Shown piece by piece: positions 39,968 to 56,053 of a DNA stretch of 64,000 nucleotides. The notes under the pieces were generated by a model. The model did not search any database. It saw nothing but the letters and a program-made list of their open reading frames with translations, and was not told where the DNA came from. The translations under genes were made by a program, and so were the position numbers. Source of the stretch: an uncultured SAR116 cluster alpha proteobacterium (GTDB lineage: Bacteria; Pseudomonadota; Alphaproteobacteria; Puniceispirillales; Marisalimonadaceae); NCBI GenBank assembly GCA_902622745.1, contig CACNQW010000004.1:6326-70325 (forward strand), read 5' to 3'. Each line of letters begins with the position of its first letter. Within the stretch, counting starts at the first letter, position 1.

Positions 39968-40703
39968 TTTTCCAATTATCTATCAACCAATCTGGGCACT
40001 TTACTTGTTTATATATTTTTTTATAAAATTTATTCTTAGGTACGGGCCACTTTTCATTCAATACATCTTCTGGGTCAGGTTTTCCAGTAAACGCAACTAC
40101 ACTCGTATCACTTGGCAAACTCGCAGGTTTAAATATTCTAATTGGCCACTTTGGTAGCAAGTTATGTTTAAAACTTTTACACCAATTTCGAGGCCAAAAA
40201 TTTTGTTCTTTAATTGTTTTACTTATATAAACTTGTTCGATATGATATTTTTCCCAAAGTAAGTGTGAATTTTTCTCAAACTCTTCAAAAATATATTTGT
40301 GTTTTTTTACAGGAAATCTAAAACAGCTTGTGTTTCCAATATTTTTTCCTATTTGCGTCCAGTTTTCAATTACACAGAAAGTTCCTGGCTTGAAAGAAAA
40401 AAACTTATCTAAGTTATTGGTTATTACTAAATCTAAATCTAAAAATAAAATATCACCATCAAGATCAAATAAAGGGTATTGCCAAATGCTCAGTTTTCTC
40501 CAAGGTGTTTTAGATATTTCTCTAGGAATATTAATTTTTGGTAAAGCTCGACATAAGACACTATTTGAAATATTACTATCATCATCAGTGAAACAGATAA
40601 GTTTAGTAGGTTTTAAAGTATGTTTTTGGATAGCTTCATAAAGGTTATTAACGTAGTTATAATTATAACGTGTACCCCATTTCATGCATATTATAGTTTG
40701 CAA
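39960..40703 (-). CDS. hypothetical protein, possible GT-A-fold nucleotide-sugar transferase
   Basis: 247 aa. N-terminal ICMKWGTRYNYNYVNNLY and a DxD-like ILFLDLDLVI. It is adjacent and divergent to a GT4 glycosyltransferase. The family assignment is tentative. Confidence 0.4.
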   Translation of the reverse strand: MQTIICMKWGTRYNYNYVNNLYEAIQKHTLKPTKLICFTDDDSNISNSVLCRALPKINIPREISKTPWRKLSIWQYPLFDLDGDILFLDLDLVITNNLDKFFSFKPGTFCVIENWTQIGKNIGNTSCFRFPVKKHKYIFEEFEKNSHLLWEKYHIEQVYISKTIKEQNFWPRNWCKSFKHNLLPKWPIRIFKPASLPSDTSVVAFTGKPDPEDVLNEKWPVPKNKFYKKIYKQVKCPDWLIDNWKIN

Positions 40704-43135: not shown

Positions 43136-44503
43136 TTAACTAAATATTTTTACTTTATTTTTCAAATATATTAAGATTAATAATGACGGAATTACCATTA
43201 AAGCAGTTATTATAAAGAACACCCCCCAGTCACCTTCTAAGTAATCTACAATATTCCCTGACGAAGAAGCAAGTGTTGTTCTTCCAATTGTACCAATGGA
43301 AGCTAATAAAGCATATTGAGTAGCTGTATATTTTCTATTTACTAAAATAGAGATGAAAGCCACGAAAGCCACTGTTGCAAAAGCAGCAGCTATGTCATCC
43401 AATATTACAGCTATAGAAAAGATAAAATAATTTTTTCCTATCCAATATAAAATTGAAAATAAAATATTTGTTACTGCCATAAAAAGTCCAGCTATTAAAA
43501 CTGCTCTAAATAAGCCCAGTTTAATTGTAAAAACACCCCCTAAGAACGTAAATAGTATTGTGGTTATCCAACCTAACCCTTTTGAAAAAATACCAATGTC
43601 AGCCTTTGAAAATCCAATTTCTTTATAAAAAATTATTGACATTCTTCCAAGAAAAGCTTCACCAATTTTAAAAAGAAAAATAAATGATAATATCCCTAAA
43701 CTTATAGAAAGACCATTTTGTTTAAAAAAAGAATATATTGGGGCAACTAATGTTGAATAAACCCATGAAAAAATTTTTTTAATTTTATAATAATTATTTA
43801 GAAATACGTATTTTTTTGATGTAAACTTTAATTCAATCGTTTTATTACTAAAAGCTCTTTCATTGATTGTTAATAAAAAATAATTGAATATATTTATAAT
43901 GAAGAATAAGAAAAAAAAAGTAATTTGCCAGTAATTGTCATACCCTTGTTTATCAAAAAAGTCTGATATTGATAAAGATAATAAACCTCCAAGTTTAAAA
44001 CCAGTCCACCATCCAATTACAGCCATTGAAGCGCCAGCAGCCATAATGTTTTTTTCATGGATTTTTATTTGCTCAATCCTTAGAGCATCAATAGTGATAT
44101 CTTGTGTTGATGAAAAAATAGCAATCAATAAACCAATAAAGATTATTAAAAATAAATTCTCATTTGGATTTAAAAAAGACCAAATCAATAAAGCAATACC
44201 AATTAACAATTGCATTAAAAAAATCCATGATTTTCTATGGCCAATTTTGTTTGATAAATATGGTATTTTTAATTTATCAATTAATGGAGCCCATAGATAA
44301 TTGATTGCGTATACAGCAAAAATTAAACCTGCCCAGCCTACCGCACTTCTACTTAATCCGGCTTCTTTAAGCCACAAACTTAAGCTTGAACCAATTATTA
44401 CCCATGGAAATCCACTAATACATCCAAGGAGAAAAATTTTAAACATTCTTCTTTCTAAAAAAACTTTTAGACTGTTATAATTATTTTCTTTTAAGATTTT
44501 CAT
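43136..44503 (-). CDS. ampG: AmpG-family muropeptide MFS permease
   Basis: The N-terminal region LLGCISGFPWVIIGSSLSLWLKEAGLSRSAVGWAGLIFAVYAINYLWAPLIDK closely follows the AmpG consensus. 455 aa and polytopic. Confidence 0.85.
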   Translation of the reverse strand: MKILKENNYNSLKVFLERRMFKIFLLGCISGFPWVIIGSSLSLWLKEAGLSRSAVGWAGLIFAVYAINYLWAPLIDKLKIPYLSNKIGHRKSWIFLMQLLIGIALLIWSFLNPNENLFLIIFIGLLIAIFSSTQDITIDALRIEQIKIHEKNIMAAGASMAVIGWWTGFKLGGLLSLSISDFFDKQGYDNYWQITFFFLFFIINIFNYFLLTINERAFSNKTIELKFTSKKYVFLNNYYKIKKIFSWVYSTLVAPIYSFFKQNGLSISLGILSFIFLFKIGEAFLGRMSIIFYKEIGFSKADIGIFSKGLGWITTILFTFLGGVFTIKLGLFRAVLIAGLFMAVTNILFSILYWIGKNYFIFSIAVILDDIAAAFATVAFVAFISILVNRKYTATQYALLASIGTIGRTTLASSSGNIVDYLEGDWGVFFIITALMVIPSLLILIYLKNKVKIFS

Positions 44504-44578
44504 TTTATTAATTCAGTAAGTTATTTTATAATATATTCTATAATAAATATCTAAAGTAAATTTAAATTCCAAAAACTA

Positions 44579-45109
44579 ATGAGAATTTTAGTTAATACAA
44601 TTTATAAATCTAAATTAATCTTCAATAAAAGAGTATATGAATGTCAAGTTGGTAAAAATGGAATTTTGCCTCAATACAAAAAAATAGAAGGCGATAAATC
44701 TACTCCAATGGGAAAATGGAAAATATTAACAATTTTCATTAGAAGAGACAAAAAATTGAAGCTCAAATTTAATAAATATATTAAGAATAAAATAGTATTT
44801 ATTAAAAAAAATTTTATTTGGTGTGATGATATTAAAAGTTTTCATTATAACAAACTTTTAAAAGTTAACGATTTGTCAAATTTAAATTATTCATATGAAA
44901 AATTATTTAGAGATGATGAAGTATATGATATTATTTTGGAATTAAATCAAAATCAAAGACCTTGTATTAAAAATAAAGGTAGTGCAATTTTTATACATTG
45001 TTCATTCAATGATTTAAGGTCAACATTTGGTTGTGTGGCACTTAAAAAAAATATTTTAAAATTATTAATTAATAATTTACAAAAACAAAATTACATATAT
45101 ATAAGATGA
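44579..45109 (+). CDS. YkuD-fold L,D-transpeptidase-domain protein without recognisable signal peptide
   Basis: The catalytic motif IFIHCSFNDLRSTFGCVAL matches the YkuD H-x(n)-[ST]-x-G-C signature. The N-terminus (MRILVNTIYKSKLIFNKR) is not hydrophobic. Confidence 0.75.
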   Translation: MRILVNTIYKSKLIFNKRVYECQVGKNGILPQYKKIEGDKSTPMGKWKILTIFIRRDKKLKLKFNKYIKNKIVFIKKNFIWCDDIKSFHYNKLLKVNDLSNLNYSYEKLFRDDEVYDIILELNQNQRPCIKNKGSAIFIHCSFNDLRSTFGCVALKKNILKLLINNLQKQNYIYIR

Positions 45110-45132
45110 TTATACTAAGACTGGAGATATAG

Positions 45133-47139
45133 ATGATTTATAATATTTTACCAATTATTTTAGGTTTATTAGGGCTGTTAAGCGCATATTTTGTGTATTT
45201 AAAAGTTAAATCATCTCCAGAAGGATCGGGTAAAGTTAAAGAAATAGGCGATGAGATACATTTGGGTGCCATGGTATTTATGGCTAGTGAATACAAGAGG
45301 TTAGTGGCATTTTGTGTAATTTGCATCATAGCACTTTACTTTTCATTAGGTTGGGAAACAGCTTTGTCATTTTTTGTTGGAGCGGCATGTTCTGGTATAG
45401 CTGGGTTTATTGGGATGTATAGTGCTACAAAAGCAAATGTTAGGACAGCAGTTGCTGCTAATGACAAAGGTTCGTCTGAAGCTTTAAATGTTGCTTTTTT
45501 TGGTGGATCAATTATGGGATTGACTGTCGCATCAATGGGATTATTTGGTGTAGGTATTTTGTTCTATTATTTTGGAGGAGATGTCAAAACTGTTCATTCC
45601 ATCGAAGGATTTGCAATGGGAGCTTCATCAGTAGCATTATTTTCTCGTGTAGGTGGAGGAATTTTTACAAAGAGCGCTGACGTAGGTGCTGATTTAGTAG
45701 GTAAGGTTGAAGCTGGAATACCAGAAGATGATCCTAGAAATCCTGGGGTAATAGCAGATAATGTCGGAGATAATGTTGGTGACGTAGCAGGTATGGGCTC
45801 TGATATTTTCGAATCTTATTGTGGTTCAATGATAGCGTCTATAGCATTAGCTGCTTCCATGACATCTGCAACTATTAATAAATTAGGTGGTGATCAGTCT
45901 ATGCTGCAATTAATGCCTTTAGCTTTGGCTTCATTAGGATTAATTTGTTCTCTTATTGGAATACTTATGGTGAAAATATACTCCTCAAAGAGTCCCGAAA
46001 TCGCATTAAGATTTGGTACAATAGGTTCTGCTGTAGTTTTTATTATAGCTTCATATTTTTTGGTTAAATTTTTAGGTGTTTCTAGTGGGGTTTGGGCAGC
46101 GGTTTTAATTGGATCTGTAGGAGGTATAATCGTTGGTTTAGTTACCGAATATTATACAGGAGGAAGTCCAGTTAAAAAGATAGCTAAAGGTGGCGAAACT
46201 GGATCTGCAACAATTATGATAACAGGATTAGCCACAGGGATGCAATCCGTAGCAATACCCGTTTTTACAATAGTATGTATTATATTTACTTCAAATTATT
46301 TTGCAGGTCTTTATGGTGTAGGAATTGCAGCTATTGGAATGCTTAGCACAGTTGGAATTACAATGGCTATCGATGCATATGGTCCAGTTGCTGATAATGC
46401 GGGAGGTATTGCTGAAATGGCTGAAATGGGTAAAAAAACTAGAGAAATTACTGACTCTCTTGATGAAGTTGGTAACACAACTGCCGCAATTGGAAAAGGC
46501 TTTGCTATTAGTGCTGCTGCTCTTGCTGCTTTAGCTTTAATCAGTGCATATATAGAAAAAATTTCAATGAGTGATCCTTCATTTGTATTAGCAATTAATG
46601 ATCCCTTAGTTTTAAGTGGAATGTTTTTAGGTGGTATATTTCCATTTTTGGTTAGTTCAATGACAATGACTGCAGTGGGAGATGCTGCTTTTGATATGAT
46701 TAAAGAGATAAGAAGACAATTTAAAGAAATTCCTGGATTGCTTGAGGGAAAAGCAAAACCTGATACCGCTAAATGTGTAGATATCGCAACTCAAGCTGCC
46801 TTAAAGAAAATGATTTTGCCTGGCTCACTTGCGGTCCTAGCTCCAGTTGTCATAGGTTTTTTGTTAGGCCCTAAGGCTTTAGGCGGAATGCTAGGCGGTG
46901 CATTAATATGTTGTGTTATGATGGCTTTAATGATGTCCAATGCAGGTGGAGCCTGGGATAACGCAAAAAAATATGTAGAGAAAGGTAACTTTGGAGGAAA
47001 AGGTTCTGAAGTTCATAAAGCAGCTGTTGTAGGAGACACTGTTGGAGATCCGCTAAAAGATACCTCAGGACCATCTATGAATATATTAATTAATGTTATG
47101 GCAATAGTAAGCTTGGTTATAGCGCCACTTTTAATCTGA
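45133..47139 (+). CDS. hppA: membrane-bound ion-translocating pyrophosphatase (K+-dependent type signature)
   Basis: 668 aa, about 16 TM helices. Motifs [63 protein letters not shown]. Confidence 0.97.
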
Positions 47140-47140
47140 A

Positions 47141-48007
47141 TTATTCGTTAATAACATTTGAGAAATCTAAGTGCCCTTTCCCAGCTTTGACTAACTCGTC
47201 AAATTTATTAAATGTACTTAATCCATAATTGTTTTTTGAATTAGTTTGATTTATAGCATCAATTGCCAGACTTAGATCTTTATGCATTAGTGCAGTAGAA
47301 AAGCCTCCATTGTAATTATTATCCGAGGGACTTTTAGGCCCTATGCCTTTAATTGGACAGTAAGTATTAATTGCCCAACAAGACCCACTTGATGTCGATA
47401 ATACTTCAAATAATTTATTTAGATCTAAGCCAAGATTTTTTCCAAGTTCAAAACTTTCTCCTACAGCTATCATTGTACTTGCTAAAAGCATATTATTACA
47501 TATTTTCGCACTTTGACCTGCGCCATAAGCACCGCAATGTATTGATTTTTTCCCCATTATGTCAAAAAGGTCTTTTACATTATTTAAAGTTTTTTCATCA
47601 CCTCCTATCATAAATGTTAGTGTTCCTTCATCAGCCCCTACTACACCACCGGATACAGGTGCATCCAATGTTTCAATGTTTAGTTTTTGCGCGTTCTTTT
47701 GAACTAATAGCGATGTTTTGACATCGATTGTTGAACAATCAACTAAAATTTGTGAACTTTTTGCATGCATTAAGATTTCTTCCCATACTTTTAGAACTGC
47801 TTTCCCATCTGGAAGCATTGTTATGATATAATCACTATTCTCTGTAAGTTCTTTAATATTTTTCATTTGATTAATATTATATTTTTTTAATTCATTAAAG
47901 ACCTCTGAGTTTAAATCGAAGCCATTGATTATATAATTATTTTTAGATAAATTTATTGACATACCTTTACCCATGTTACCTAAACCTATAAATCCAATAT
48001 TAATCAT
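47141..48007 (-). CDS. mmsB: 3-hydroxyisobutyrate dehydrogenase
   Basis: [28 protein letters not shown], and [12 protein letters not shown] motifs of HIBADH. 288 aa. Confidence 0.88.
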
Positions 48008-48010
48008 AAG

Positions 48011-49117
48011 TCACTCCTCTTTTAATAAAATTTTCTGTAATGGATGTGTTTGTGTTTTTATAATTCTTTTGTTATCTAATTGTTTTATTAATATTTGTAT
48101 ATCTTGTTTTAAATTAAATAAATATGGGTACAATTCAATTGAAAGCGGTGATTTCCATTTCCATAATAAAATATCTAATGCATCAATTATTTTATTATCA
48201 AATTTATAATTCATTGTTTCTTCTGACTCTTCAAAATATGGTTTTTCGAAAAATTTATAAACTTTGAAAAATTCTTCAGGTATTTTTTGGTCAAGTATTA
48301 TTTTTTTCCAGTCTTCATATATATTTTTTGATTCCATAGTGCCATGAATAATTTTTAAGATTATGACATCAATATTTATTAAGCCAGTAAGATTAAACAT
48401 GAAATTTTTACTAATTTTAAAATCTGGTGGTGGGCCTAAAAAAATCCTTTTTGGACAATAATCATTAGAAAAATAATTACACCAATAAATTAACTTGTCA
48501 TCTTTTAATTTATCATTAATTTTTCTGTTTTTGCTATAGACATTGGAAGAAATAATTGTTTTGCCAGTATAGAAAATAAAAAAATTATCATTAATTATAT
48601 CTAAAAAATCATCCAAATAATTTTGACTATTATCTTCAATCTCATCTGAATAAACTCTGGGCACAACAATAAGTGGTTTTTTAAAATAAGCACTTAGTTT
48701 ATTACAGAGTTCAGCATGAAGCTTCCCTTCAGATTTATTTTGAAAAGATTTCTCTTCTATATCATCATATAATATAACTAACGATTTTGCTCCACAATGC
48801 TCTAACATCTGAAGTTTATTTTTTAAAATTGTAAAATCATCATTTCTGTAAGTAAAGTCAAAATCTAAGCCAGGACTTATGCCAATTATAATATTTATAT
48901 TTTTAGAATTTGCGTAATTACAAAATTTTTGAAAAGACCTCAGCCATATTTTAGGGTATTTTTTTCTCCAATCAAATCTATGCCTAATATCTTCTTTAGG
49001 TGCATAAAAATAGGAATTAAAGTTTAGTTCAGACAAATTTTTTATAATGGTTTTCCTTTGACTCCAAGTGAGGAGCTTTCCGTAAAAACCTTCAATATAA
49101 CCAATATTTTTTAACAT
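48011..49117 (-). CDS. glycoside hydrolase family 84-like protein (O-GlcNAcase/beta-N-acetylglucosaminidase-like), cytoplasmic
   Basis: GYIEGFYGKLLTWSQRKTIIKNLSELNFNSYFYAPKEDIRHRFDWRKKYP matches the GH84 N-terminal barrel. LVILYDDIE matches the catalytic Asp-Asp pair. YWCNYFSNDY...FLGPP matches the GH84 WWNFPVSDY...LLGP segment. No signal peptide. Confidence 0.75.
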   Translation of the reverse strand: MLKNIGYIEGFYGKLLTWSQRKTIIKNLSELNFNSYFYAPKEDIRHRFDWRKKYPKIWLRSFQKFCNYANSKNINIIIGISPGLDFDFTYRNDDFTILKNKLQMLEHCGAKSLVILYDDIEEKSFQNKSEGKLHAELCNKLSAYFKKPLIVVPRVYSDEIEDNSQNYLDDFLDIINDNFFIFYTGKTIISSNVYSKNRKINDKLKDDKLIYWCNYFSNDYCPKRIFLGPPPDFKISKNFMFNLTGLINIDVIILKIIHGTMESKNIYEDWKKIILDQKIPEEFFKVYKFFEKPYFEESEETMNYKFDNKIIDALDILLWKWKSPLSIELYPYLFNLKQDIQILIKQLDNKRIIKTQTHPLQKILLKEE

Positions 49118-49185
49118 TAATTTGTTTTATTATAATATTTTAAATTTATTGTTTTATTTAAAATACACAAGTTTTATATTAAGTT

Positions 49186-50163
49186 ATGAAAATAATAATC
49201 ACTGGTTTTTCTGGTTTCATAGGATATCATTTATGTAACCGTATTTTTTATGATCAAAAATATAAAGTAACAGGAGTTGATAATTTTAATAATTACTATG
49301 ACCCAGTGCTGAAAAAAGATAGATTTAAAATACTAAAACCTCATTTACATAATCATTATAACTGTAACATATCTAATCAAAGTAAAATTTTTGAGATTAT
49401 AGATTATGAAAAGCCTGACATTATTATTCATTTGGCAGCTCAAGCAGGTGTAAGATATTCTTTAGAAAATCCTCAGGCGTATTTTGAAAGCAATTTACAA
49501 GGTTTTTTTAATATTTTAGAAGCTTGTAGAATTTTTAAAATTAATAAACTAATTTTTGCATCTTCGTCTTCAGTATATGGTAATAATAAAAAAGACTATT
49601 TTTCAGAAAATGATTTTGTTGATAACCCATTAAATTTCTATGCAGCAAGTAAAAAGTCAAATGAATTAATGGCATATTCATATTCAAATTTATACAAAAT
49701 CATAATTGTTGGACTTCGTTTTTTTACTGTTTATGGACCGTTTGGACGTCCTGATATGTCTTACTATAAGTTCACTAACAACATTCTTAATGGTAAATAT
49801 ATAAATGTTTTTGGAAAAGGAGAAATGTACAGAGACTTTACATATGTAGATGATATAACTAATGGTATTTTTAGCTTGATAGAAACAATTAATACAAAAT
49901 TTTCTGAAAGTTCAGTCCCATATAATATTTTCAATATAGGAAACAATAATCCAGTGAAGTTAACTTATTTCATAAGTTTAATTGAAAAAGCTCTTGGCAT
50001 TAAAGCAAAAAAAAATTATTTGGACTTCCAGCAAGGTGAAGCTATTAAAACAGCAGCAAATATAAGTAAAATACAAAAATTTTTAAATTTTAATCCAACA
50101 ACAAAAATTGAGGATGGAATTCCAATTTTTGTAAAATGGTTTAAAGAATATCATAATTTATGA
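49186..50163 (+). CDS. NAD-dependent nucleotide-sugar epimerase (UDP-glucuronate 4-epimerase-like SDR)
   Basis: IIITGFSGFIGYHL Rossmann motif, SSSSVYG, and catalytic YAASKKSNE (Y-x3-K). The length and C-terminus resemble the CapI/WbnF-type epimerases. Confidence 0.82.
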   Translation: MKIIITGFSGFIGYHLCNRIFYDQKYKVTGVDNFNNYYDPVLKKDRFKILKPHLHNHYNCNISNQSKIFEIIDYEKPDIIIHLAAQAGVRYSLENPQAYFESNLQGFFNILEACRIFKINKLIFASSSSVYGNNKKDYFSENDFVDNPLNFYAASKKSNELMAYSYSNLYKIIIVGLRFFTVYGPFGRPDMSYYKFTNNILNGKYINVFGKGEMYRDFTYVDDITNGIFSLIETINTKFSESSVPYNIFNIGNNNPVKLTYFISLIEKALGIKAKKNYLDFQQGEAIKTAANISKIQKFLNFNPTTKIEDGIPIFVKWFKEYHNL

Positions 50164-50178
50164 TTTTAGGAGGAAATT

Positions 50179-50868
50179 ATTAAAATTCTAGCTATAGGTG
50201 CTCATCCTGATGACATTGAAATTTACATGTTTGGTTTGTTGTGTTTATTTAAAAAAAGGGGTGATAAAATCAATTCAATAGTTGCAACTGATGGTTCACT
50301 CGGTTCTGCTAAACCAGACCCCAAACTTGCTAAAGTAAGAGCAAATGAAACTAAACATGCATTAAAAGAATTATGTATTCCAACATTACTAGACATTAAA
50401 GATGGTCAACTTGGAAATCAAATATCTCATCAAAGAAAAATCTATAAAGAAATAAAAAAAATTGATCCAGATTTAATATTGACTCATTCAGAGAATGATT
50501 ATCACCCAGATCATAGAGCTTTATCCAGTATTGTAAAATCTATAGCAGGAATTTATTACCCAGTTTTATTTTGTGATAACTTTGTAGGAATAAATTTTAA
50601 TCCCAATTATTATGTGGACATTAGTGAATTTTTCCACCAAAAAAAAATTGCTATAAGCAGTCATAAATCACAAAAACCAGACAAATATATTGAACTTGTT
50701 GAAATCTGGAATCGTTTTCGTTCAGTTCAGTGCAATGGACCTGCGCAAACATATGTAGAAGCTTATAAATTTTTTCCTTCTTTCCCGTTTTCAGATATTA
50801 GAAATTTATTGCCTAATTCACCAAAGATAAGGCCTACATCTCTTAAAAAAAAAGGTGGATTAATTTAA
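50179..50868 (+). CDS. PIG-L/LmbE-family N-acetylglucosaminyl deacetylase, probable ATT start
   Basis: The frame is open from 50170 and encodes IIKILAIGAHPDDIEIY before the first ATG (50227). AHPDD is the Zn-binding PIG-L motif. HPDH lies further downstream. AGGAGG at 50168-50173 sits 5 nt upstream of ATT 50179. Confidence 0.7.
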   Translation: MKILAIGAHPDDIEIYMFGLLCLFKKRGDKINSIVATDGSLGSAKPDPKLAKVRANETKHALKELCIPTLLDIKDGQLGNQISHQRKIYKEIKKIDPDLILTHSENDYHPDHRALSSIVKSIAGIYYPVLFCDNFVGINFNPNYYVDISEFFHQKKIAISSHKSQKPDKYIELVEIWNRFRSVQCNGPAQTYVEAYKFFPSFPFSDIRNLLPNSPKIRPTSLKKKGGLI

Positions 50869-51953
50869 ATTTCTTTATAATTAATTACTTCTCCACCTAT
50901 TGAAGGTTTAACAACGCCAGTTGTAGTTGGAAATGTAATTGGCAATTGCTTTATTCTTCTTGCTGTAAGATAACAAATCATTTCAGCTTCAATTGTGTCG
51001 GGGTTAATTCCAAGATTTGTAGCAGAAAAAATTTTAGAATCACTATAGTTGATTAAGTTCTCCATTATAAAATTATTTTTGGCACCTCCACCTGAAATTA
51101 CACATGTTTGAGGTTTTTTTTTAAATTTGGATATTTCTAAAGCAATTGTTTTTACGGTAAATAATGAAAGAGTAGCTATTGTATCTTCAATTTTAGCATC
51201 TTTGAACAAATTTAAATATTTGTTGAAGTAATTTTTATCTAATGATTTTGGGTAATCTTGCTTGAAATAATCATCATCTAATAAGATTTTAAGTTTACTG
51301 AAATTAATATTACCACTATAAGCAAATTTACCATTCTCATCAAAATCAATCCCACGTTTTTCTTGAACAAATTTATCAATAAGACAATTACCTGGACCAG
51401 TATCAAAACCAATTAATTTTTTTTTATCACAGAAACTTATGTTTGTGATACCACCAATATTAATGAAGCAAGATGGAAAATTTAGTTTTTTTTCTTCAAT
51501 CAAAAATTTATGATAAATTGGAGAGATAGGGGCACCTTGACCATGAAGGCTTAAATCTCTTTTTCTAAAATCATAGACAACATCTTTTCTTAAAAGTTTA
51601 CTTAATAATTTTGCATTTCCTATTTGAATAGATTTAAATTTACTTGGCAAATGAAGAATTGTTTGGCCATGAAACCCTATGACTATAGGCTTATCCTTAT
51701 TTCTCTGGATAATTTTGTTTGCTGCTTTAAAATGATCATAAGTAATTTTTTCAGCCAATTCTTTGATGAAAGTTTTGTTTTTTATCAATTTTTCAGTATT
51801 TTTGTTTAATTTTTTAATTAAAAATTTTGTATTCTTATTATATTCAGCAACTAGTGTGTCAATAATATAAAATTTTTTTCTCCCATCTGTTTCAGCAAAA
51901 CATACATCTATCCCATCCATGCTGGTTCCTGACATTAAGCCAATAATTTTCAT
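50865..51953 (-). CDS. anmK: anhydro-N-acetylmuramic acid kinase
   Basis: From Met16 of the tracked ORF: MKIIGLMSGTSMDGIDV, the AnmK N-terminal signature. NIGGITN and DTGPGNCLID motifs. 4-nt convergent overlap with the PIG-L gene. Confidence 0.9.
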   Translation of the reverse strand: MKIIGLMSGTSMDGIDVCFAETDGRKKFYIIDTLVAEYNKNTKFLIKKLNKNTEKLIKNKTFIKELAEKITYDHFKAANKIIQRNKDKPIVIGFHGQTILHLPSKFKSIQIGNAKLLSKLLRKDVVYDFRKRDLSLHGQGAPISPIYHKFLIEEKKLNFPSCFINIGGITNISFCDKKKLIGFDTGPGNCLIDKFVQEKRGIDFDENGKFAYSGNINFSKLKILLDDDYFKQDYPKSLDKNYFNKYLNLFKDAKIEDTIATLSLFTVKTIALEISKFKKKPQTCVISGGGAKNNFIMENLINYSDSKIFSATNLGINPDTIEAEMICYLTARRIKQLPITFPTTTGVVKPSIGGEVINYKEI

Positions 51954-52034
51954 GGATGCTATAATATAGAAAATAGATAATGTTGTATACATTTTCACTT
52001 CTTTTAATTATAAATCATAATTGTTAGGTTATAT

Positions 52035-53039
52035 ATGACATATTTAATATTTGGAGGTGCAGGTTTTATAGGCATCAATTTCGTCAAATTGATTTTATCA
52101 TTAAATGTCAAAATAGTTGTTTTTGATAAGCTAACGGAAGTTTCAAACAAAAAGGAAATAAATAATTTAGTTTATCAAAATAAAATTATATTTATAAATG
52201 AAGATATTTGTAATTATGAAAAAGTTTTTTTTTGTATTAAAAAATTTGAACCAACTTATATTATAAATTTTGCTGCAGAAACGCATGTCGATAATTCAAT
52301 TAAAAATCCTGACAGTTTTATAAGCACAAATATCGTAGGTACTTACACTATTTTAAAAGCATTACAAAGTTTTAAAAATTCCAAATACTGGAATAATTTT
52401 CGATATTTAAATATTTCTACTGATGAAGTTTATGGATCTTTAGGTAAGAATGACCCACCTTTCACTGAAGGATCTAAAATGTGTCCTAATAGTCCTTATT
52501 CTGCATCCAAAGCAAGTGCAGATCATCTAGTGAGGTCATATTTTAAAACTTTTGGTTTGCCAGTTTTAACAAGTAATTGTTCTAATAATTTTGGTCCTTT
52601 TCAACACGTTGAAAAGTTAATTCCATTGACAATAGATAAATGTCTAAATTTACAAAAAATACCAATTTATGGAAATGGAAAAAATGTAAGAGATTGGATT
52701 TTTGTAAGAGATCATTGTAATGTCTTAAAATTAATATTGGAAAATGGAAAATTGGGTGAAGTATATAATATTGGTGGAGGACAAGAATTAAAAAATATAG
52801 ATCTTGTCAAAATGATATGTGAATATTTTGATAAGTCTATACCTCAGAAATCTGGTAAAAAATACTCTGATTTAATTTCTTTTGTAGATGATCGACCAGG
52901 GCATGACCAAAGGTATGCAGTTAATAATAAAAAAATTACATCTCATTTTGGATGGAACCCTTCAACATCATTTAAAGATAATTTAGAAACAACAATAAAA
53001 TGGTATATTGAAAATAATTTTAGTAAGAAAAATGATTAA
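52035..53039 (+). CDS. rfbB: dTDP-glucose 4,6-dehydratase
   Basis: IFGGAGFIGINF, ISTDEVYG, and YSASKASADHLVRSY (Y-x3-K). First gene of the rfbBACD block. Confidence 0.95.
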   Translation: MTYLIFGGAGFIGINFVKLILSLNVKIVVFDKLTEVSNKKEINNLVYQNKIIFINEDICNYEKVFFCIKKFEPTYIINFAAETHVDNSIKNPDSFISTNIVGTYTILKALQSFKNSKYWNNFRYLNISTDEVYGSLGKNDPPFTEGSKMCPNSPYSASKASADHLVRSYFKTFGLPVLTSNCSNNFGPFQHVEKLIPLTIDKCLNLQKIPIYGNGKNVRDWIFVRDHCNVLKLILENGKLGEVYNIGGGQELKNIDLVKMICEYFDKSIPQKSGKKYSDLISFVDDRPGHDQRYAVNNKKITSHFGWNPSTSFKDNLETTIKWYIENNFSKKND

Positions 53040-53907
53040 TAGAAAAGGCATTATACTTTCTGGAGGAACAGGATCTAGGTTATATCCAATAACTCAGGTT
53101 GTTTCAAAACAATTAATACCTGTTTTTGATAAGCCAATGATATATTATCCACTTTCAACTCTAATGAGCATTGGAATTACAGAAATTCTTATTATTACAA
53201 CGCCAAACGATTTAGACAAATTTAAATCTTTATTATCCAATGGCAATCAATGGGGGATTTCTATTGAATATCAAGTTCAAAAAAAACCTAATGGAATTGC
53301 TGAAGCTTTAATTATAGCTGAAAAATTTATTAAAAATAGTAATGTTGTTTTGATATTAGGAGATAATATATTTCATGGGAACGATTTACCAAATCGATTG
53401 AAAAAAGTTAGCATTGACGAAGAAACAGCAACAATTTTAGCTTACCCAGTGAAGAATCCGGATCAATATGGGATTGTAAATTTTGACAAAGATTTTAACC
53501 CAATTAGCTTAGAAGAAAAACCTCAAACTCCAAAATCAAAGTTTGCTATTACAGGGATGTATTTTTATGATAAAGAAGCTTGTAGTCTGGCAAAAAAATT
53601 ACTTCCTTCCAACAGAGGTGAACTTGAAATTACTGATCTAAATATAATGTATATGAAGCGTAAAAAGTTAAAAGTTTTTCTTTTAGATAGAGGAGATGTT
53701 TGGCTTGACGCAGGTACGCATATCACATTATCACAAGCTACTCAATATGTTCAAACAATTGAAGAAAGACAAGGAATGAAAATCTCTTGTCCAGAGGAAG
53801 TTGCATATAGATCAAATTTAATTGATAAAAATAAATTAAAACTTTTAGCCAAGAGATACTCAAATAATGACTATGGTAAATATTTATATAATCTGATTGA
53901 TACATGA
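53032..53907 (+). CDS. rfbA: glucose-1-phosphate thymidylyltransferase
   Basis: From the internal Met: MINRKGIILSGGTGSRLYPIT, KQLIPVFDKPMIYYPLS, LGDNIF, EITDLN. ATG at 53032 overlaps the rfbB stop by 8 nt. Confidence 0.95.
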   Translation: MINRKGIILSGGTGSRLYPITQVVSKQLIPVFDKPMIYYPLSTLMSIGITEILIITTPNDLDKFKSLLSNGNQWGISIEYQVQKKPNGIAEALIIAEKFIKNSNVVLILGDNIFHGNDLPNRLKKVSIDEETATILAYPVKNPDQYGIVNFDKDFNPISLEEKPQTPKSKFAITGMYFYDKEACSLAKKLLPSNRGELEITDLNIMYMKRKKLKVFLLDRGDVWLDAGTHITLSQATQYVQTIEERQGMKISCPEEVAYRSNLIDKNKLKLLAKRYSNNDYGKYLYNLIDT

Positions 53908-54449
53908 TTTTTTCTAAAACTAAAATTGTGGATGTATTTATAATAAAACCAAAACTTTTTCATGATGAAAGAGGTTTTTTTTATGAATCATGGAATATAG
54001 ATTATTTTAATAAAAAAGTAGGAAAAAATTTTTCTTTCATTCAAGAAAATGTTTCATTTTCAAAAAAAAATGTTTTAAGAGGACTTCATTATCAAGTTTC
54101 AAAACCTCAGGGTAAGTTAGTAAGTGTTTTTAATGGATCCATTTTAGATGTTGTCATTGATTTGAGAAAATCTTCAAAGACATTTGGCAAACATATTACC
54201 TATAAGTTATCTAGTAGGAATAAAGAATTACTTTGGGTTCCTCCAGGTTGTGCGCATGGGTTTTTAGTTCTTTCAAATTTTGCAAAAGTTTTATATCAGG
54301 TAACAGATAATTATTCACCCAATGATGAAAGATGTATTCTTTGGAGTGACCGAACTCTTATGATTAATTGGGGAATAAGAAATAAGCCAAAAATATCCCA
54401 AAAAGATAGCAAGGGCGTGACATTTTTAGAAGCAGAAAAATTCAAATGA
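53904..54449 (+). CDS. rfbC: dTDP-4-dehydrorhamnose 3,5-epimerase
   Basis: FHDERGFFYESW, LRGLHYQ, KLVSVFNGSILDVVIDLR, and PPGCAHGF motifs of RmlC. ATGA overlaps at both ends. Confidence 0.95.
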   Translation: MIFSKTKIVDVFIIKPKLFHDERGFFYESWNIDYFNKKVGKNFSFIQENVSFSKKNVLRGLHYQVSKPQGKLVSVFNGSILDVVIDLRKSSKTFGKHITYKLSSRNKELLWVPPGCAHGFLVLSNFAKVLYQVTDNYSPNDERCILWSDRTLMINWGIRNKPKISQKDSKGVTFLEAEKFK

Positions 54450-56053
54450 AGATAGTTGTATTCGGAGGTTATGGTCAACTTGGTTTAATTTTTCAAGAGT
54501 TAAATTTAAAAGAATTTGATTTACTTTTTTTTAAAAGAAAACATTTTGAAACTCAAAATTATGATCAAATATATAAATTAATAGAAATTCACAAACCTCA
54601 AGTAATTATAAATTTTTTAGCTTTTACAAATGTTGATCAATGTGAAATATCAAAAGAAAAAGCAATAGAAGCTAATTCAATTTTTCCAAAACACTTATCT
54701 ATTGCAGCAAAAAAACATTCCTCCTTTTTAATTCATATTTCTACAGATTATGTTTTTGGAGATAATTCCAAACAAAAATTATTAGAAAAAACTGATACAT
54801 TTCCAATTAACTTTTATGGAAAAAGCAAAAGAGACGGTGAACTTAACATTATCAAATCAAAATGTAATTATATAATTTTAAGAACCTCTTGGATATATAG
54901 TGACAAAAAAAATAATTTTTTTTTGACAATAAAAAAATTACTTGAATCTAACAAAAAAGTTATTTCTGTAGTCAATGATCAATTCGGCGCACCTACATCA
55001 GGATATGATTTTATTTTATCTTTAAAAAAAATCTTAGTTTCAATCAAGAAAAATAATTCTAAAAACTATCAGAAAAAAATTACTGGAATTTATCATTTGA
55101 CAAATGCTGGAGAAGGAAGTTGGTATAATTTTGCTTGTGAAATATCAAAAAATTTGGGATATGATTTTAGTCAAAGAATTGCTTCAATAAATTCAAATAA
55201 AATAAATAGATTGGCTAAAAGACAAACCAACTCTAGGTTAAGCAATAATAAAATTAAAAAAGTTTTTAATATAAATTTACCTAAATGGGAAAATAGTTTA
55301 AATATATTTTGTAAAGAAAAGTTTAGCATGAATACAGAATCTATTCCTGAAAAGTTTATTGACCATTTGATGTTGAAAGATAGTGTTAAACTGATGTTAG
55401 ATGACAAACTTCACGCTGTGAAAAAACTTTATGGTTGCATCAATGAAATTGAATTAATTGTTAATAAAATTTTTGATCATTTACAAAGCAACTCTAATTC
55501 AAGATTAATTTATGTTGGAGCTGGCACATCCGGTAGAATAGCAGTACAAGATGGTTCTGAGCTTTTCCCTACATTTGGATGGCCAAAATCACGAACAGAA
55601 TTCATAATAGCAGGCGGGTTAAAAGCTCTAACTCAATCTATTGAAAACTCAGAAGATGATATAAAATCTGCTAAAAAAATGTCAGCTGATAAAAAAATTT
55701 CTTCAAGTGATATTATTTTAGCAGTATCTGCTAATGGTAATACATTATTTACAAATGAGGTAATCAAATTTTCAAATAGCAGAAAAGCATTAACAGTTGG
55801 TATTACTAACAATCACAAGACTCTCTTGGAAAAAAACTCAAAACTCACATTAGTAGTTAATACTGGAGCTGAATTGGTTGCAGGCTCGACACGTTTAAAA
55901 GCTGGAACTATTCAAAAAATAGTACTTAACATTATATCTACACTGGTATTTGTAAAACTAGGTTGTGTAGAGCAAGGTCTCATGGTAAATATGCGACCTA
56001 GCAACTGTAAACTTAGAAAAAGAAAAAATCTTATTAACAAAATTTTGTCATAA
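54446..56053 (+). CDS. rfbD-murQ: fused dTDP-4-dehydrorhamnose reductase (aa 1-294) / N-acetylmuramic acid 6-phosphate etherase (aa 295-535)
   Basis: N-terminal half: FGGYGQLG, ISTDYVFGD, YGKSKRDGE (RmlD Y-x3-K). C-terminal half from ATG 55328: RLIYVGAGTSGRIAVQDGSELFPTFGW and GSTRLKAGTIQK (SIS-domain MurQ). No stop codon lies between the halves. Confidence 0.8.
   Translation: MKIVVFGGYGQLGLIFQELNLKEFDLLFFKRKHFETQNYDQIYKLIEIHKPQVIINFLAFTNVDQCEISKEKAIEANSIFPKHLSIAAKKHSSFLIHISTDYVFGDNSKQKLLEKTDTFPINFYGKSKRDGELNIIKSKCNYIILRTSWIYSDKKNNFFLTIKKLLESNKKVISVVNDQFGAPTSGYDFILSLKKILVSIKKNNSKNYQKKITGIYHLTNAGEGSWYNFACEISKNLGYDFSQRIASINSNKINRLAKRQTNSRLSNNKIKKVFNINLPKWENSLNIFCKEKFSMNTESIPEKFIDHLMLKDSVKLMLDDKLHAVKKLYGCINEIELIVNKIFDHLQSNSNSRLIYVGAGTSGRIAVQDGSELFPTFGWPKSRTEFIIAGGLKALTQSIENSEDDIKSAKKMSADKKISSSDIILAVSANGNTLFTNEVIKFSNSRKALTVGITNNHKTLLEKNSKLTLVVNTGAELVAGSTRLKAGTIQKIVLNIISTLVFVKLGCVEQGLMVNMRPSNCKLRKRKNLINKILS

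What the first reader, a model, noticed from the sequence alone, without database searches (positions are those of the whole stretch)
43136..56053. A dispersed, apparently non-canonical muropeptide-recycling gene set interleaved with surface-glycan genes
Six genes within 13 kb could form a recycling route: ampG (importer), a signal-less YkuD-fold protein, a cytoplasmic GH84-like N-acetylglucosaminidase, a PIG-L deacetylase, anmK and murQ. The canonical route is AmpG -> NagZ (GH3) -> AmpD/LdcA -> AnmK -> MurQ -> NagA. No GH3 NagZ, AmpD, LdcA or NagA is visible here. The positions are instead occupied by proteins of other folds that could in principle do the same chemistry: GH84 for NagZ, YkuD-fold for LdcA, and PIG-L for NagA. 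Their interleaving with the rfb and UDP-sugar genes suggests that salvaged amino sugars are routed into the surface glycan. In a streamlined marine oligotroph, exogenous peptidoglycan fragments could also be scavenged as C/N sources. The functional substitutions are my inference.
Basis: inference. Interest (0 to 1): 0.7.

Follow-up and report, generated by a model that had tools for sequence, protein, structure and literature searches.

The report
Cell-wall recycling cluster with swapped enzymes
The six genes are a real, widely conserved gene set for importing and dismantling cell-wall fragments, in which an O-GlcNAcase-type (GH84) sugar-cutting enzyme appears to replace the usual NagZ; the surface-sugar genes mixed in are lineage-specific insertions, not part of the pathway.

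Summary
The six genes exist as described, and no GH3 NagZ, AmpD, LdcA, NagA or ROK kinase is encoded in the 64-kb window. The grouping is not chance. In 80 loci from other genomes that encode the same short GH84 protein, ampG lies within 10 kb in 51 of 53 long loci. In ~50% GC Puniceispirillaceae-type genomes the six genes form one compact ~6-kb block: ampG, YkuD, murQ, anmK, PIG-L, GH84. In Granulosicoccaceae (Gammaproteobacteria), ampG and GH84 are adjacent. Catalytic residues of all the proteins are invariant, and GH84 and YkuD lack signal peptides.

My reading is a muropeptide uptake and breakdown pathway with three substitutions:
- GH84 does NagZ's job. I found no paper describing this.
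- A leaderless YkuD protein acts as LD-carboxypeptidase. The precedent is ElsL of Acinetobacter.
- A PIG-L deacetylase finishes the amino-sugar branch. Its substrate is uncertain.

- Relatives also carry a canonical AmpD-type amidase, a YkfC-like NlpC/P60 peptidase and an M19 dipeptidase in the cluster, so the route is a hybrid.
- The rfb and epimerase genes are insertions specific to this low-GC lineage, which gives no support for routing sugars into the surface glycan.
- The nearest genomes are filed as 'SAR116 cluster' (HIMB59-like), not shown to be Pelagibacterales.

Whole-genome absence of nagZ, ldcA and nagA could not be tested.

The parts
43136..44503 (-). ampG, an MFS permease for anhydromuropeptides
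   Evidence: TIGR00901 AmpG family scores 351.8 bits against a cutoff of 350. A homologue lies within 10 kb of the GH84 gene in 51 of 53 long loci.
44579..45109 (+). Leaderless single-domain YkuD-fold protein (176 aa), a candidate cytoplasmic LD-carboxypeptidase that would trim tetrapeptide to tripeptide
   Evidence: PF03734 E 4e-7, above the gathering score. His140, Gly151 and Cys152 are invariant in 46 homologues. The N-terminus is not hydrophobic. The gene is divergent from ampG here and in 37 of 38 long alphaproteobacterial loci. The best PDB profile match is the LD-carboxypeptidase Pgp2 (E 0.07). The best Foldseek matches are Tlde1a and Bd1075 (E about 1e-3, TM 0.43).
45133..47139 (+). 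Membrane H+/Na+ pyrophosphatase, not part of the pathway. It sits between YkuD and GH84 only in the low-GC lineage.
   Evidence: PF03030 E 5e-255; NF001961 scores 1105 bits. It is present in 23 low-GC loci and absent from the compact clusters.
47141..48007 (-). 3-hydroxyisobutyrate-dehydrogenase-family gene, 3 nt downstream of GH84 on the same strand. It is probably co-transcribed; its link to the pathway is unknown.
   Evidence: TIGR01692 scores 319 bits against a cutoff of 292. It directly follows GH84 in 24 low-GC loci, whereas the ~50% GC loci have an M19 dipeptidase at that position.
48011..49117 (-). Short cytoplasmic GH84 beta-N-acetylglucosaminidase (368 aa), proposed to split GlcNAc from anhMurNAc(-peptide), i.e. 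NagZ's job
   Evidence: PF07555 E 3.6e-48. NagJ and human OGA structures match at E 1e-29 to 1e-25. The catalytic pair D118-D119, together with K41, Y156, W212, N214, D219 and Y220, is invariant in 79 homologues. It has no signal peptide. Synteny with ampG, ampD, anmK and murQ holds in three lineages.
49186..50163 (+). SDR sugar-nucleotide epimerase/dehydratase (TviC/GalE-like). This is a glycan gene inserted between GH84 and PIG-L in this sub-lineage.
   Evidence: PF01370 E 1e-52. In most relatives PIG-L and GH84 are directly adjacent and divergent.
50179..50868 (+). PIG-L/LmbE-family zinc deacetylase (229 aa with an ATT start; the mechanical ORF starts at 50227)
   Evidence: PF02585 E 5e-16. 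The in-frame upstream sequence encodes KILAIGAHPDD after an AGGAGG motif. Relatives start MKILAIGAHPDD. H9, D11, D12, H109, D111 and H112 are invariant. The AF2 model has pLDDT 91. The best Foldseek hits are archaeal diacetylchitobiose deacetylase (TM 0.75-0.78), BshB and TT1542.
50865..51998 (-). anmK, anhydro-N-acetylmuramic acid kinase
   Evidence: NF007141 scores 372 bits against a cutoff of 352; PF03702 E 3e-75.
52035..55324 (+). rmlB, rmlA, rmlC and rmlD (dTDP-rhamnose synthesis). This cassette is inserted between anmK and murQ.
   Evidence: TIGR01181, TIGR01207, TIGR01221 and TIGR01214 all score above their cutoffs. Most relatives have murQ directly next to anmK.
55325..56053 (+). murQ, MurNAc-6-phosphate etherase, in a short form of about 243 aa. 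It is read in frame with rmlD as one 535-aa ORF (54446-56053).
   Evidence: NF003915 scores 235.7 bits against a cutoff of 168 over residues 302-528 of the fused ORF. Both catalytic Glu residues are invariant in 37 homologues. In the close relatives L082, L083 and L085, rmlD (295 aa) and murQ are separate overlapping genes; murQ is 255 aa in L082 and L083 and cut by the contig end in L085.

Best explanation
The window carries a conserved pathway for uptake and breakdown of peptidoglycan fragments. Two or three canonical enzymes have been replaced by proteins of other folds. The gene order in this lineage was then broken up by insertions.

Proposed route (the assignments come from family membership plus gene context; none was assayed):
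1. AmpG imports GlcNAc-anhMurNAc-peptides.
2. The short cytoplasmic GH84 enzyme removes GlcNAc by substrate-assisted catalysis. This is NagZ's job.
3. An AmpD-type amidase releases the stem peptide. It is encoded in the cluster in relatives and must lie outside this window here.
4. The leaderless YkuD protein removes the terminal D-Ala from tetrapeptides. This is LdcA's job, as shown for ElsL.
5. AnmK and MurQ convert anhMurNAc to GlcNAc-6-P plus D-lactate.
6. The PIG-L zinc deacetylase removes the acetyl group from GlcNAc-6-P (NagA-like) or from free GlcNAc (Dac-like). This yields a glucosamine compound that enters GlmM/GlmU or glycolysis.

In relatives, a YkfC-like NlpC/P60 peptidase and an M19 dipeptidase in the same cluster suggest that the peptide is degraded to amino acids rather than re-ligated.

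The pyrophosphatase, the HIBADH-family gene, the epimerase and rmlBACD are lineage-specific insertions at the edge of a variable surface-glycan island.
For: Synteny:
- A scan of species-representative genomes with the GH84 alignment gave 559 confirmed relatives, and the best 80 loci were analysed.
- Among the 53 loci of 15 kb or more: AmpG 51, NlpC/P60+SH3 43, AnmK 40, Amidase_2 35, MurQ 29. YkuD is in 37 of 38 alphaproteobacterial loci and PIG-L in 31 of 38.
- About 16 genomes of ~50% GC have the contiguous block ampG(-) YkuD(+) murQ(-) anmK(+) PIG-L(-) GH84(+) in about 6 kb.
- Granulosicoccaceae and Halioglobus loci have ampD, ampG, GH84 and NlpC/P60 side by side.
- Low-GC relatives have murQ-anmK-PIG-L-GH84-HIBADH-PPase-YkuD-ampG with no rfb genes inside.

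Protein features:
- Catalytic residues of GH84, YkuD, PIG-L and MurQ are invariant across all homologues.
- GH84 and YkuD have no signal-peptide-like N-terminus.
- No GH3, S66, NagA or ROK gene is in the window.

Precedent and structure:
- ElsL is a leaderless YkuD-domain protein shown to be the recycling LD-carboxypeptidase of A. baumannii (PMC8649774).
- The window YkuD protein is closest to the LD-carboxypeptidases Pgp2, Tlde1a and Bd1075.
- PIG-L occurs only in loci that also have murQ. Its fold is closest to small-sugar GlcNAc deacetylases.
Against: - No biochemical data exist for any of the three substitutes.
- Whole genomes could not be searched, so canonical nagZ, ldcA, nagA and nagK may exist elsewhere and make these genes redundant or differently specialised.
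- The window itself lacks the AmpD amidase that the route needs.
- Homology of the YkuD protein to ElsL specifically was not testable. The ElsL ortholog list contains only six Alphaproteobacteria; searches of it for Puniceispirillum, SAR116 and Pelagibacter found nothing. The PDB and Foldseek matches are weak (E 0.07; TM 0.43).
- No PIG-L enzyme is known to act on GlcNAc-6-P. The nearest structures act on unphosphorylated sugars.
- PIG-L and YkuD are absent from the gammaproteobacterial loci, so only the GH84-ampG link is general.
- Synteny counts are not phylogenetically independent.
Confidence: 0.6

Rival explanations
1. The route exists mainly to scavenge and catabolise peptidoglycan fragments, from the cell's own turnover or from seawater, as a carbon and nitrogen source. 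It would not return building blocks to the cell's own wall synthesis. This differs from the best explanation in purpose, not in enzymology.
For: Relatives carry peptide-degrading enzymes in the cluster: a YkfC-like SH3+NlpC/P60 peptidase (43 of 53 long loci), an M19 dipeptidase directly after GH84 (16 of 53 long loci; 24 of all loci), and glutamate racemase in gammaproteobacterial loci. No Mpl-type ligase was found among the conserved neighbours. MurQ sends MurNAc towards GlcNAc-6-P and D-lactate rather than to UDP-MurNAc.
Against: E. coli uses the same MurQ route in genuine recycling. Mpl or other genes may lie elsewhere in the genome. The window itself has none of the peptide-degrading genes. 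Gene content alone cannot separate recycling from scavenging.
Confidence: 0.4
2. The PIG-L protein is not a NagA substitute. It would be a Dac-like deacetylase of free GlcNAc (or of another unphosphorylated GlcNAc glycoside) released by GH84. The resulting glucosamine would then be phosphorylated by a kinase.
For: The best sequence and structure matches are archaeal diacetylchitobiose deacetylases, followed by BC1534/BshB. All of these act on unphosphorylated GlcNAc compounds. PIG-L is divergently paired with GH84 in nearly all alphaproteobacterial loci. No NagK-type kinase is in the cluster, so free GlcNAc otherwise has no visible fate.
Against: PIG-L appears only where murQ is present. It is missing from seven loci that have ampG-YkuD-GH84 but no murQ. 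This fits a step downstream of MurQ, whose product is GlcNAc-6-P. Deacetylating the disaccharide before cleavage would block GH84, which needs the acetamido group (established GH84 mechanism).
Confidence: 0.3
3. Canonical nagZ, ldcA and nagA are present elsewhere in these genomes. The GH84, YkuD and PIG-L proteins would then act on some other imported GlcNAc-containing compound, or be merely redundant.
For: Whole genomes were not searchable with these tools. The AmpD and NlpC/P60 genes of this genome evidently lie outside the 64-kb window, so other pathway genes could too. AmpG-family permeases may carry other substrates.
Against: The neighbours are specific for anhydromuropeptides: AnmK, MurQ, the AmpD-type amidase and the gamma-D-Glu-DAP-type peptidase. 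The cluster otherwise lacks any enzyme for the obligatory GlcNAc-MurNAc cleavage. No GH3 hit appeared in 1.45 Mb around 85 such clusters (weak probe).
Confidence: 0.15
4. GH84 and PIG-L belong to the neighbouring surface-glycan machinery, trimming or deacetylating GlcNAc residues of the glycan. Their closeness to ampG, anmK and murQ would be accidental. A variant of this is the first reader's idea that salvaged sugars are channelled into the glycan.
For: In the window they are flanked by an epimerase, rmlBACD, a TviB-like dehydrogenase, Wzy and a GT4 glycosyltransferase. PIG-L follows the epimerase by 15 nt. Glycan genes also sit inside or beside the cluster in other low-GC relatives.
Against: In ~50% GC Alphaproteobacteria and in Gammaproteobacteria the same genes cluster with ampG, anmK, murQ and ampD without any glycan genes. 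The glycan cassettes differ between low-GC relatives, as expected for a hypervariable island (PMC10734472). GH84 and PIG-L have no export signal.
Confidence: 0.07

Closest known systems
E. coli-type peptidoglycan recycling (AmpG, NagZ, AmpD, LdcA, AnmK, MurQ, NagK, NagA)
   Same: AmpG, AnmK and MurQ pass or nearly pass their NCBIfam cutoffs. Relatives also have an AmpD-type Amidase_2. The logic is the same: import the disaccharide-peptide, then separate sugar from sugar and sugar from peptide.
   Different: No GH3 NagZ, S66 LdcA, NagA or NagK lies in the window or in the conserved neighbourhoods. A GH84 enzyme, a YkuD-fold protein and a PIG-L deacetylase are there instead. Peptide-degrading enzymes (NlpC/P60+SH3, M19) are found where Mpl would be expected.
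ElsL (LdtK) of Acinetobacter baumannii, a cytoplasmic YkuD-family LD-carboxypeptidase (PMC8649774)
   Same: Both are leaderless single YkuD domains with no peptidoglycan-binding domain. The sizes are similar: the paper's ortholog filter was 105-200 aa, and the window protein is 176 aa. Both have a catalytic Cys near the C-terminus and a genetic link to muropeptide recycling.
   Different: Sequence relatedness to ElsL itself could not be tested. The published ortholog list holds only six Alphaproteobacteria; searches of it for Puniceispirillum, SAR116 and Pelagibacter found nothing. The active-site motif here is T-x-G-C-[VI]-A-L, which resembles Pgp2.
GH84 O-GlcNAcases and NagJ (Clostridium perfringens NagJ, Bacteroides BT_4395, human OGA, Oceanicola OgOGA)
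   Same: The TIM-barrel catalytic domain matches at E 1e-19 to 1e-29. It has the D-D catalytic pair and the conserved -1 subsite residues.
   Different: The protein is only about 370-390 aa, with no signal peptide, carbohydrate-binding module or acetyltransferase-like domain. It has its own conserved C-terminal region of about 135 aa that does not match solved OGAs by sequence. Only 83 of 1.84 billion representatives match at E 1e-30 or better. The gene context points to muropeptides, not glycoproteins or hyaluronan.
Archaeal diacetylchitobiose deacetylase (Dac) and bacterial BshB/BC1534, all PIG-L/LmbE family
   Same: The fold is shared (TM 0.75-0.78), as are the AHPDD and HPDH metal and catalytic motifs. 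Like Dac, it would act in an amino-sugar salvage pathway next to a glycosidase.
   Different: Identity is about 23%. The context is MurQ and AnmK, not chitin or bacillithiol genes. The substrate is unknown and may be phosphorylated.
Bacillus YkfABCD murein-peptide catabolism (the YkfC gamma-D-Glu-L-diamino-acid endopeptidase)
   Same: Relatives carry an SH3_16 + NlpC/P60 protein of YkfC architecture next to the cluster.
   Different: It is absent from this window. In ~50% GC genomes it is fused to the AmpD-type amidase. No YkfB-type epimerase was seen; an M19 dipeptidase is present instead.

Membership tests
GH84 beta-N-acetylglucosaminidase (PF07555) | Significant match to the GH84 catalytic TIM-barrel domain | tested here: met
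   PF07555 scores 164.9 bits against a cutoff of 25. PDB NagJ and OGA match at E 1e-29 to 1e-19.
GH84 beta-N-acetylglucosaminidase (PF07555) | Adjacent catalytic Asp-Asp pair and -1 subsite residues (Lys, Tyr, Trp, Asn, Asp) | tested here: met
   ILYDDIEE aligns with the DD pair of NagJ. D118, D119, K41, Y156, W212, N214 and D219 are invariant in 79 homologues.
GH84 beta-N-acetylglucosaminidase (PF07555) | Hydrolysis of terminal beta-GlcNAc | not testable with these tools
   An enzyme assay is needed.
NagZ (GH3) - functional analogue only | GH3 fold (PF00933) | tested here: not met
   The protein is GH84, not GH3. No GH3 domain occurs in any window ORF.
NagZ (GH3) - functional analogue only | Cytoplasmic enzyme genetically linked to ampG, ampD and anmK | tested here: met
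   No signal peptide. Synteny holds in three lineages.
YkuD / L,D-transpeptidase fold (PF03734) | Domain match plus the catalytic His and the x-G-C motif | tested here: met
   31.1 bits against a cutoff of 23.4. H140, G151 and C152 are invariant in 46 homologues. Foldseek hits are all YkuD-fold proteins, but with TM of only about 0.43.
ElsL-class cytoplasmic LD-carboxypeptidase | No signal peptide, transmembrane helix or PG-binding domain; length 105-200 aa (criteria of PMC8649774) | tested here: met
   176 aa, a single domain, with low hydrophobicity at the N-terminus and throughout.
ElsL-class cytoplasmic LD-carboxypeptidase | BLASTP relatedness to A. baumannii ElsL (E <= 1e-4) | not tested
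The published ortholog list holds only six Alphaproteobacteria, and searches of it for Puniceispirillum, SAR116 and Pelagibacter found nothing.
ElsL-class cytoplasmic LD-carboxypeptidase | Cleaves tetrapeptide to tripeptide but leaves pentapeptide intact | not testable with these tools
   An enzyme assay is needed.
PIG-L / LmbE zinc deacetylase (PF02585) | Domain match with the AHPDD and HxDH metal and catalytic motifs | tested here: met
   59.8 bits against a cutoff of 28.2. The motifs are complete only if translation starts at ATT 50179. H9, D11, D12, H109, D111 and H112 are invariant. Foldseek TM is 0.75-0.78 to Dac and BshB.
NagA (GlcNAc-6-P deacetylase) - functional analogue only | Amidohydrolase-superfamily fold | tested here: not met
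   The protein has the PIG-L fold.
NagA (GlcNAc-6-P deacetylase) - functional analogue only | Activity on GlcNAc-6-phosphate | not testable with these tools
   Only indirect evidence exists: PIG-L is found only in loci that also contain murQ.
AmpG muropeptide permease | Score above the TIGR00901 cutoff | tested here: met
   351.8 against 350. The margin is narrow, but the gene context supports the assignment.
AnmK | Score above the equivalog cutoff | tested here: met
   NF007141 scores 372.4 against 352.
MurQ etherase | SIS-domain etherase model above cutoff, with both catalytic Glu residues | tested here: met
   NF003915 scores 235.7 against 168. E80 and E111 (MurQ numbering) are invariant. 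The C-terminal region of about 60 aa found in E. coli MurQ is missing here and in all relatives (about 250 aa).

The most novel reading that the evidence does not exclude
A distinct short cytoplasmic subfamily of GH84 'O-GlcNAcase-like' enzymes is the physiological NagZ of several marine Alpha- and Gammaproteobacteria. This would be a non-orthologous displacement in peptidoglycan recycling. In the alphaproteobacterial carriers, a PIG-L deacetylase would likewise stand in for NagA and a leaderless YkuD protein for LdcA. It would also give a native function to bacterial cytoplasmic OGA homologues in organisms that have no O-GlcNAc signalling.
Probability: 0.5. Interest if true: 0.8.

Novelty: new variant of a known kind. 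Interest (0 to 1): 0.68.

Why it matters
Peptidoglycan recycling has been worked out mostly in enterobacteria and pseudomonads. Missing steps in other bacteria are usually read as loss of the pathway.

This case points to a testable substitution at the NagZ step by a different glycosidase family, which uses a different catalytic mechanism (substrate-assisted). The substitution appears in abundant marine bacterioplankton lineages.

- It would extend the precedent set by ElsL, in which a YkuD-fold protein replaces LdcA.
- It would assign a natural substrate to bacterial cytoplasmic GH84 proteins.
- It bears on how streamlined ocean bacteria reclaim or scavenge cell-wall carbon and nitrogen.
- It warns that pathway-presence calls based on NagZ, LdcA and NagA markers will under-count recycling capacity.

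Tried and rejected
- Truncated PIG-L pseudogene: rejected. The metal-binding N-terminus is encoded in frame upstream, with ATT (window) or ATC (L002) where relatives have ATG, and the differences are synonymous.
- rmlD-murQ fusion as a conserved bifunctional protein: rejected as a general feature. Close relatives with the same gene order have two overlapping genes.
- HAD phosphatase next to the cluster in ~50% GC genomes as MupP: not supported. The MupP model scores 46.6 bits against a cutoff of 359.
- Other conserved neighbours are unrelated to cell-wall metabolism and were set aside: GloB, LamB/YcsF, carboxyltransferase, GMC oxidoreductase, arginase, MoaA, DEAD helicase and SRAP.
- PDB sequence search with the single YkuD protein found nothing. 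A family profile found only Pgp2, weakly.
- Literature searches for GH84 or O-GlcNAcase together with muropeptide or peptidoglycan recycling found no paper linking the two. The same was true for LmbE with recycling, and for AmpG with SAR11, SAR116 or HIMB59.
- Attempts to place the nearest SAGs in the HIMB59 study's tables found no entries. The AEGEAN-169 paper has no supplements held as text.
- tblastn of AmpD, NlpC/P60, M19 and glutamate racemase proteins from relatives against the window: no hits.

Full report
WHAT IS IN THE WINDOW

The region 43136-56053 contains, in order:
- ampG (43136-44503, -)
- a 176-aa YkuD-domain protein (44579-45109, +)
- a membrane pyrophosphatase (45133-47139, +)
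- a 3-hydroxyisobutyrate-dehydrogenase-family gene (47141-48007, -)
- a 368-aa GH84 N-acetylglucosaminidase (48011-49117, -)
- an SDR sugar-nucleotide epimerase (49186-50163, +)
- a PIG-L deacetylase (ORF 50227-50868, +)
- anmK (50865-51998, -)
- rmlB, rmlA and rmlC (52035-54449, +)
- a 535-aa ORF (54446-56053, +) whose first 290 residues are RmlD and whose residues 302-528 are MurQ

Flanking genes are Wzy and a GT4 glycosyltransferase on one side. On the other side are a TviB-like UDP-GlcNAc dehydrogenase and a PglK/MsbA-like ABC exporter.

Every window ORF of 100 aa or more that does not overlap a longer ORF was scanned against Pfam, apart from one 108-aa ORF (61472-61798). None is a GH3 enzyme, Amidase_2, Peptidase_S66, NagA-type amidohydrolase or ROK kinase. 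One caveat: two of the interleaved genes (pyrophosphatase, HIBADH family) are not glycan genes.

TWO DETAILS OF GENE STRUCTURE

The PIG-L start codon. The mechanical ORF starts at Met17 and lacks the AHPDD metal-binding motif. The in-frame sequence just upstream encodes I-K-I-L-A-I-G-A-H-P-D-D, preceded by AGGAGG. Relatives begin M-K-I-L-A-I-G-A-H-P-D-D. The codon at the position of their ATG is ATT in the window and ATC in the nearest genome, L002, and the differences downstream are synonymous. The five closest database proteins were all called as 213 aa. I conclude that the gene is intact (229 aa, from 50179) and uses a non-canonical start in this sub-lineage.

The rmlD-murQ fusion. It is private to the window. 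In L082, L083 and L085, which share the window's gene order and whose PIG-L (P0241) is 94% identical to the window's, rmlD (295 aa) and murQ are separate overlapping genes; murQ is 255 aa in L082 and L083 and cut by the contig end in L085. murQ keeps its own ATG at 55325.

IS THE GROUPING MORE THAN CHANCE?

The GH84 protein belongs to a small subfamily of about 370-400-aa proteins. A word-indexed search found 476 database proteins at E <= 1e-5. Only 83 of 1.84 billion representatives match at E <= 1e-30.

A scan of species-representative genomes with an alignment of this family gave 559 confirmed relatives, and I analysed the best 80 loci. I then ran tblastn with the window's proteins and clustered all ORFs of these loci all-against-all. 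Three arrangements emerged.

1. Low-GC genomes (26-32% GC, like the window). The order is murQ, anmK, PIG-L, GH84, HIBADH, PPase, YkuD, ampG, Wzy, GT4. This is the window's order without the epimerase and rml insertions.

2. Puniceispirillaceae-type and other alphaproteobacterial MAGs of ~50% GC. About 16 loci have a contiguous block of about 6 kb: ampG(-) YkuD(+) murQ(-) anmK(+) PIG-L(-) GH84(+). Others have shorter versions such as ampG-YkuD-GH84.

3. Granulosicoccaceae and Halioglobus (Gammaproteobacteria). Here ampG and GH84 are adjacent, sometimes with anmK and murQ. No YkuD or PIG-L is present.

Counts among the 53 loci of 15 kb or more:
- AmpG 51
- AnmK 40
- MurQ 29
- YkuD in 37 of 38 alphaproteobacterial loci
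- PIG-L in 31 of 38 alphaproteobacterial loci

The six genes therefore form a conserved functional neighbourhood.

The clustering revealed further conserved neighbours:
- an SH3_16 + NlpC/P60 protein of YkfC architecture (43 of 53 long loci, in all three groups)
- a small Amidase_2 (AmpD-type) protein (35 of 53), which in 14 loci of ~50% GC is fused to the NlpC/P60 protein as a 416-aa product
- a Peptidase_M19 dipeptidase directly downstream of GH84 (16 of 53 long loci; 24 of all loci)
- glutamate racemase in gammaproteobacterial loci

None of these is in the window. The pathway therefore keeps a canonical AmpD-type amidase. In this genome that gene presumably lies outside the 64 kb.

No Mpl, NagA or NagK appeared among the conserved neighbours. 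No GH3 hit was found in 1.45 Mb of loci plus window.

THE THREE SUBSTITUTES

GH84.
- The catalytic domain matches NagJ, BT_4395 and human OGA at E 1e-29 to 1e-23.
- The D118-D119 pair and K41, Y156, W212, N214, D219 and Y220 are invariant in 79 homologues from all three groups.
- The catalytic domain starts at residue 6, and the N-terminus is not hydrophobic.
- A conserved C-terminal region of about 135 aa is specific to the subfamily.
- GH84 enzymes are exo-beta-N-acetylglucosaminidases, so cleaving GlcNAc-beta-1,4-anhMurNAc is chemically plausible. That last step is inference.
- The cluster contains no other enzyme for this obligatory step.

YkuD.
- The Pfam match is modest but above threshold.
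- E37, D39, P43, G45, H140, G151 and C152 are invariant in 46 homologues.
- No signal peptide or additional domain is present.
- A family profile finds only the LD-carboxypeptidase Pgp2 in the PDB (E 0.07), sharing the motifs EGD-x-x-TP-x-G and T-x-GC-[IV]-AL.
- The AF2 model (pLDDT 77.6) is closest to Tlde1a and Bd1075, then to L,D-transpeptidases, but TM is only about 0.43.
- The functional precedent is ElsL of A. baumannii. It is a leaderless YkuD-domain protein shown to be the cytoplasmic recycling LD-carboxypeptidase and to be replaceable by E. coli LdcA (PMC8649774).
- I could not test sequence relatedness to ElsL. The published ortholog list contains only six Alphaproteobacteria, and searches of it for Puniceispirillum, SAR116 and Pelagibacter found nothing.

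PIG-L.
- The AF2 model has pLDDT 91.
- The best Foldseek matches are archaeal diacetylchitobiose deacetylases (TM 0.75-0.78, E 1e-13), then BC1534/BshB and TT1542.
- The metal and catalytic residues are invariant.
- Gene context gives one clue to the substrate. Wherever enough flank is available, PIG-L is found only in loci that also have murQ. Seven loci with ampG-YkuD-GH84 but no murQ also lack PIG-L. This fits a step after MurQ (GlcNAc-6-P deacetylation, NagA-like), but the three genes are physically adjacent and may simply be gained and lost together.
- The structural neighbours all act on unphosphorylated GlcNAc compounds. Deacetylation of free GlcNAc, as by Dac, is therefore a serious alternative.

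THE GLYCAN GENES

The compact clusters in genomes of ~50% GC and in Gammaproteobacteria contain no glycan genes. Among the low-GC relatives the inserted cassettes differ. In the window, L082 and L083, and in the window's PIG-L-to-murQ stretch of the shorter L085, an epimerase lies between GH84 and PIG-L and rmlBACD lies between anmK and murQ. L008 has rml genes, NlpC/P60, AmpD and ManC between murQ and anmK. Other loci have an epimerase between HIBADH and PPase. In HIMB59-type genomes the LPS O-chain or glycotype island is the largest hypervariable metagenomic island (PMC10734472).

The simplest reading is that the recycling cluster borders a flexible glycan island and has been invaded repeatedly. 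This does not exclude metabolic coupling through UDP-GlcNAc, but nothing here supports it.

TAXONOMY

The nearest genome (L002, GH84 78% identical) and the other low-GC loci are single-cell genomes filed as 'SAR116 cluster'. Their GC content is 26-32% and the window's is 29.8%. This matches the HIMB59/AEGEAN-169 group, reported at 27-32.5% GC (PMC10308909), rather than cultured SAR116. Assignment to Pelagibacterales is not established. The placement in HIMB59 is my inference.

COMPARISON WITH WHAT IS KNOWN

The system works like the E. coli AmpG-NagZ-AmpD-LdcA-AnmK-MurQ-NagA route, and it shares AmpG, AnmK, MurQ and, in relatives, AmpD. It differs at the NagZ step (GH84 instead of GH3), at the LdcA step (YkuD fold, as in ElsL) and probably at the NagA step (PIG-L fold). 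It is also associated with peptide-degrading enzymes rather than Mpl.

Caulobacter, the best-studied alphaproteobacterium, has canonical NagZ, AmpD (AmiR), NagK and NagA and lacks LdcA and MurQ (PMC13046382). The arrangement here is thus not the general alphaproteobacterial one.

In the searchable literature I found no paper linking GH84 or LmbE/PIG-L proteins to muropeptide recycling. The only co-mention concerns inhibitor selectivity between NagZ and GH84 (PMC3920638).

VERDICT

The glycan-routing idea and the taxonomic label are not supported, and the route retains AmpD.

My estimates for the individual roles:
- GH84 as NagZ: about 0.7
- YkuD as LD-carboxypeptidase: about 0.6
- PIG-L as NagA-like: about 0.4, against about 0.3 for Dac-like

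The main gap is that I could not test whether canonical nagZ, ldcA and nagA are absent from the whole genome. No biochemistry exists for any of the three substitutes. I class the finding as a new variant of a known kind of system.

Noticed in passing
window 50168-50229; L002 700-790 (- strand): The PIG-L gene has no ATG, GTG or TTG start. The codon aligned with the ATG of relatives is ATT in the window (after an AGGAGG motif) and ATC in the nearest genome. The metal-binding N-terminus is conserved in frame. Gene callers truncate the protein to 213 aa in this sub-lineage.
   Followed up: partly
window 54446-56053 (junction about 55300-55330): rmlD and murQ are read as one 535-aa ORF. Close relatives with the same gene order have two overlapping genes, so this is either a private in-frame fusion (loss of the rmlD stop codon) or a sequence error.
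   Followed up: partly
L073 3803-5053 and 13 other loci of ~50% GC: The AmpD-type Amidase_2 domain is fused to an SH3 + NlpC/P60 (YkfC-like) peptidase in one protein of about 416 aa. The fusion physically couples stem-peptide release to its cleavage.
   Followed up: partly
window 47141-48007: A HIBADH-family dehydrogenase lies 3 nt downstream of GH84 on the same strand in all low-GC relatives. In genomes of ~50% GC an M19 dipeptidase occupies that position. Its link to muropeptide metabolism, if any, is unexplained.
   Followed up: no
window 34240-35847; L035 17592-19424: A gamma-glutamyltranspeptidase gene lies within about 8-13 kb of the cluster, both in the window and in some ~50% GC relatives. 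A link to gamma-D-Glu peptide breakdown is conceivable but untested.
   Followed up: no
window 39008-40703: A D-isomer-specific 2-hydroxyacid dehydrogenase and an unknown 247-aa protein with no Pfam match are conserved beside GT4 and Wzy in 14-16 low-GC relatives. The dehydrogenase could oxidise the D-lactate released by MurQ, but this is speculative.
   Followed up: no
The nearest genomes are single-cell genomes filed as 'SAR116 cluster', with 26-32% GC, which resembles HIMB59/AEGEAN-169.
   Followed up: partly
window 56062-57363 and 49186-50163: A TviB-like UDP-GlcNAc 6-dehydrogenase and a TviC/GalE-like epimerase together suggest synthesis of a UDP-GalNAcA-type sugar for the surface glycan.
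   Followed up: no
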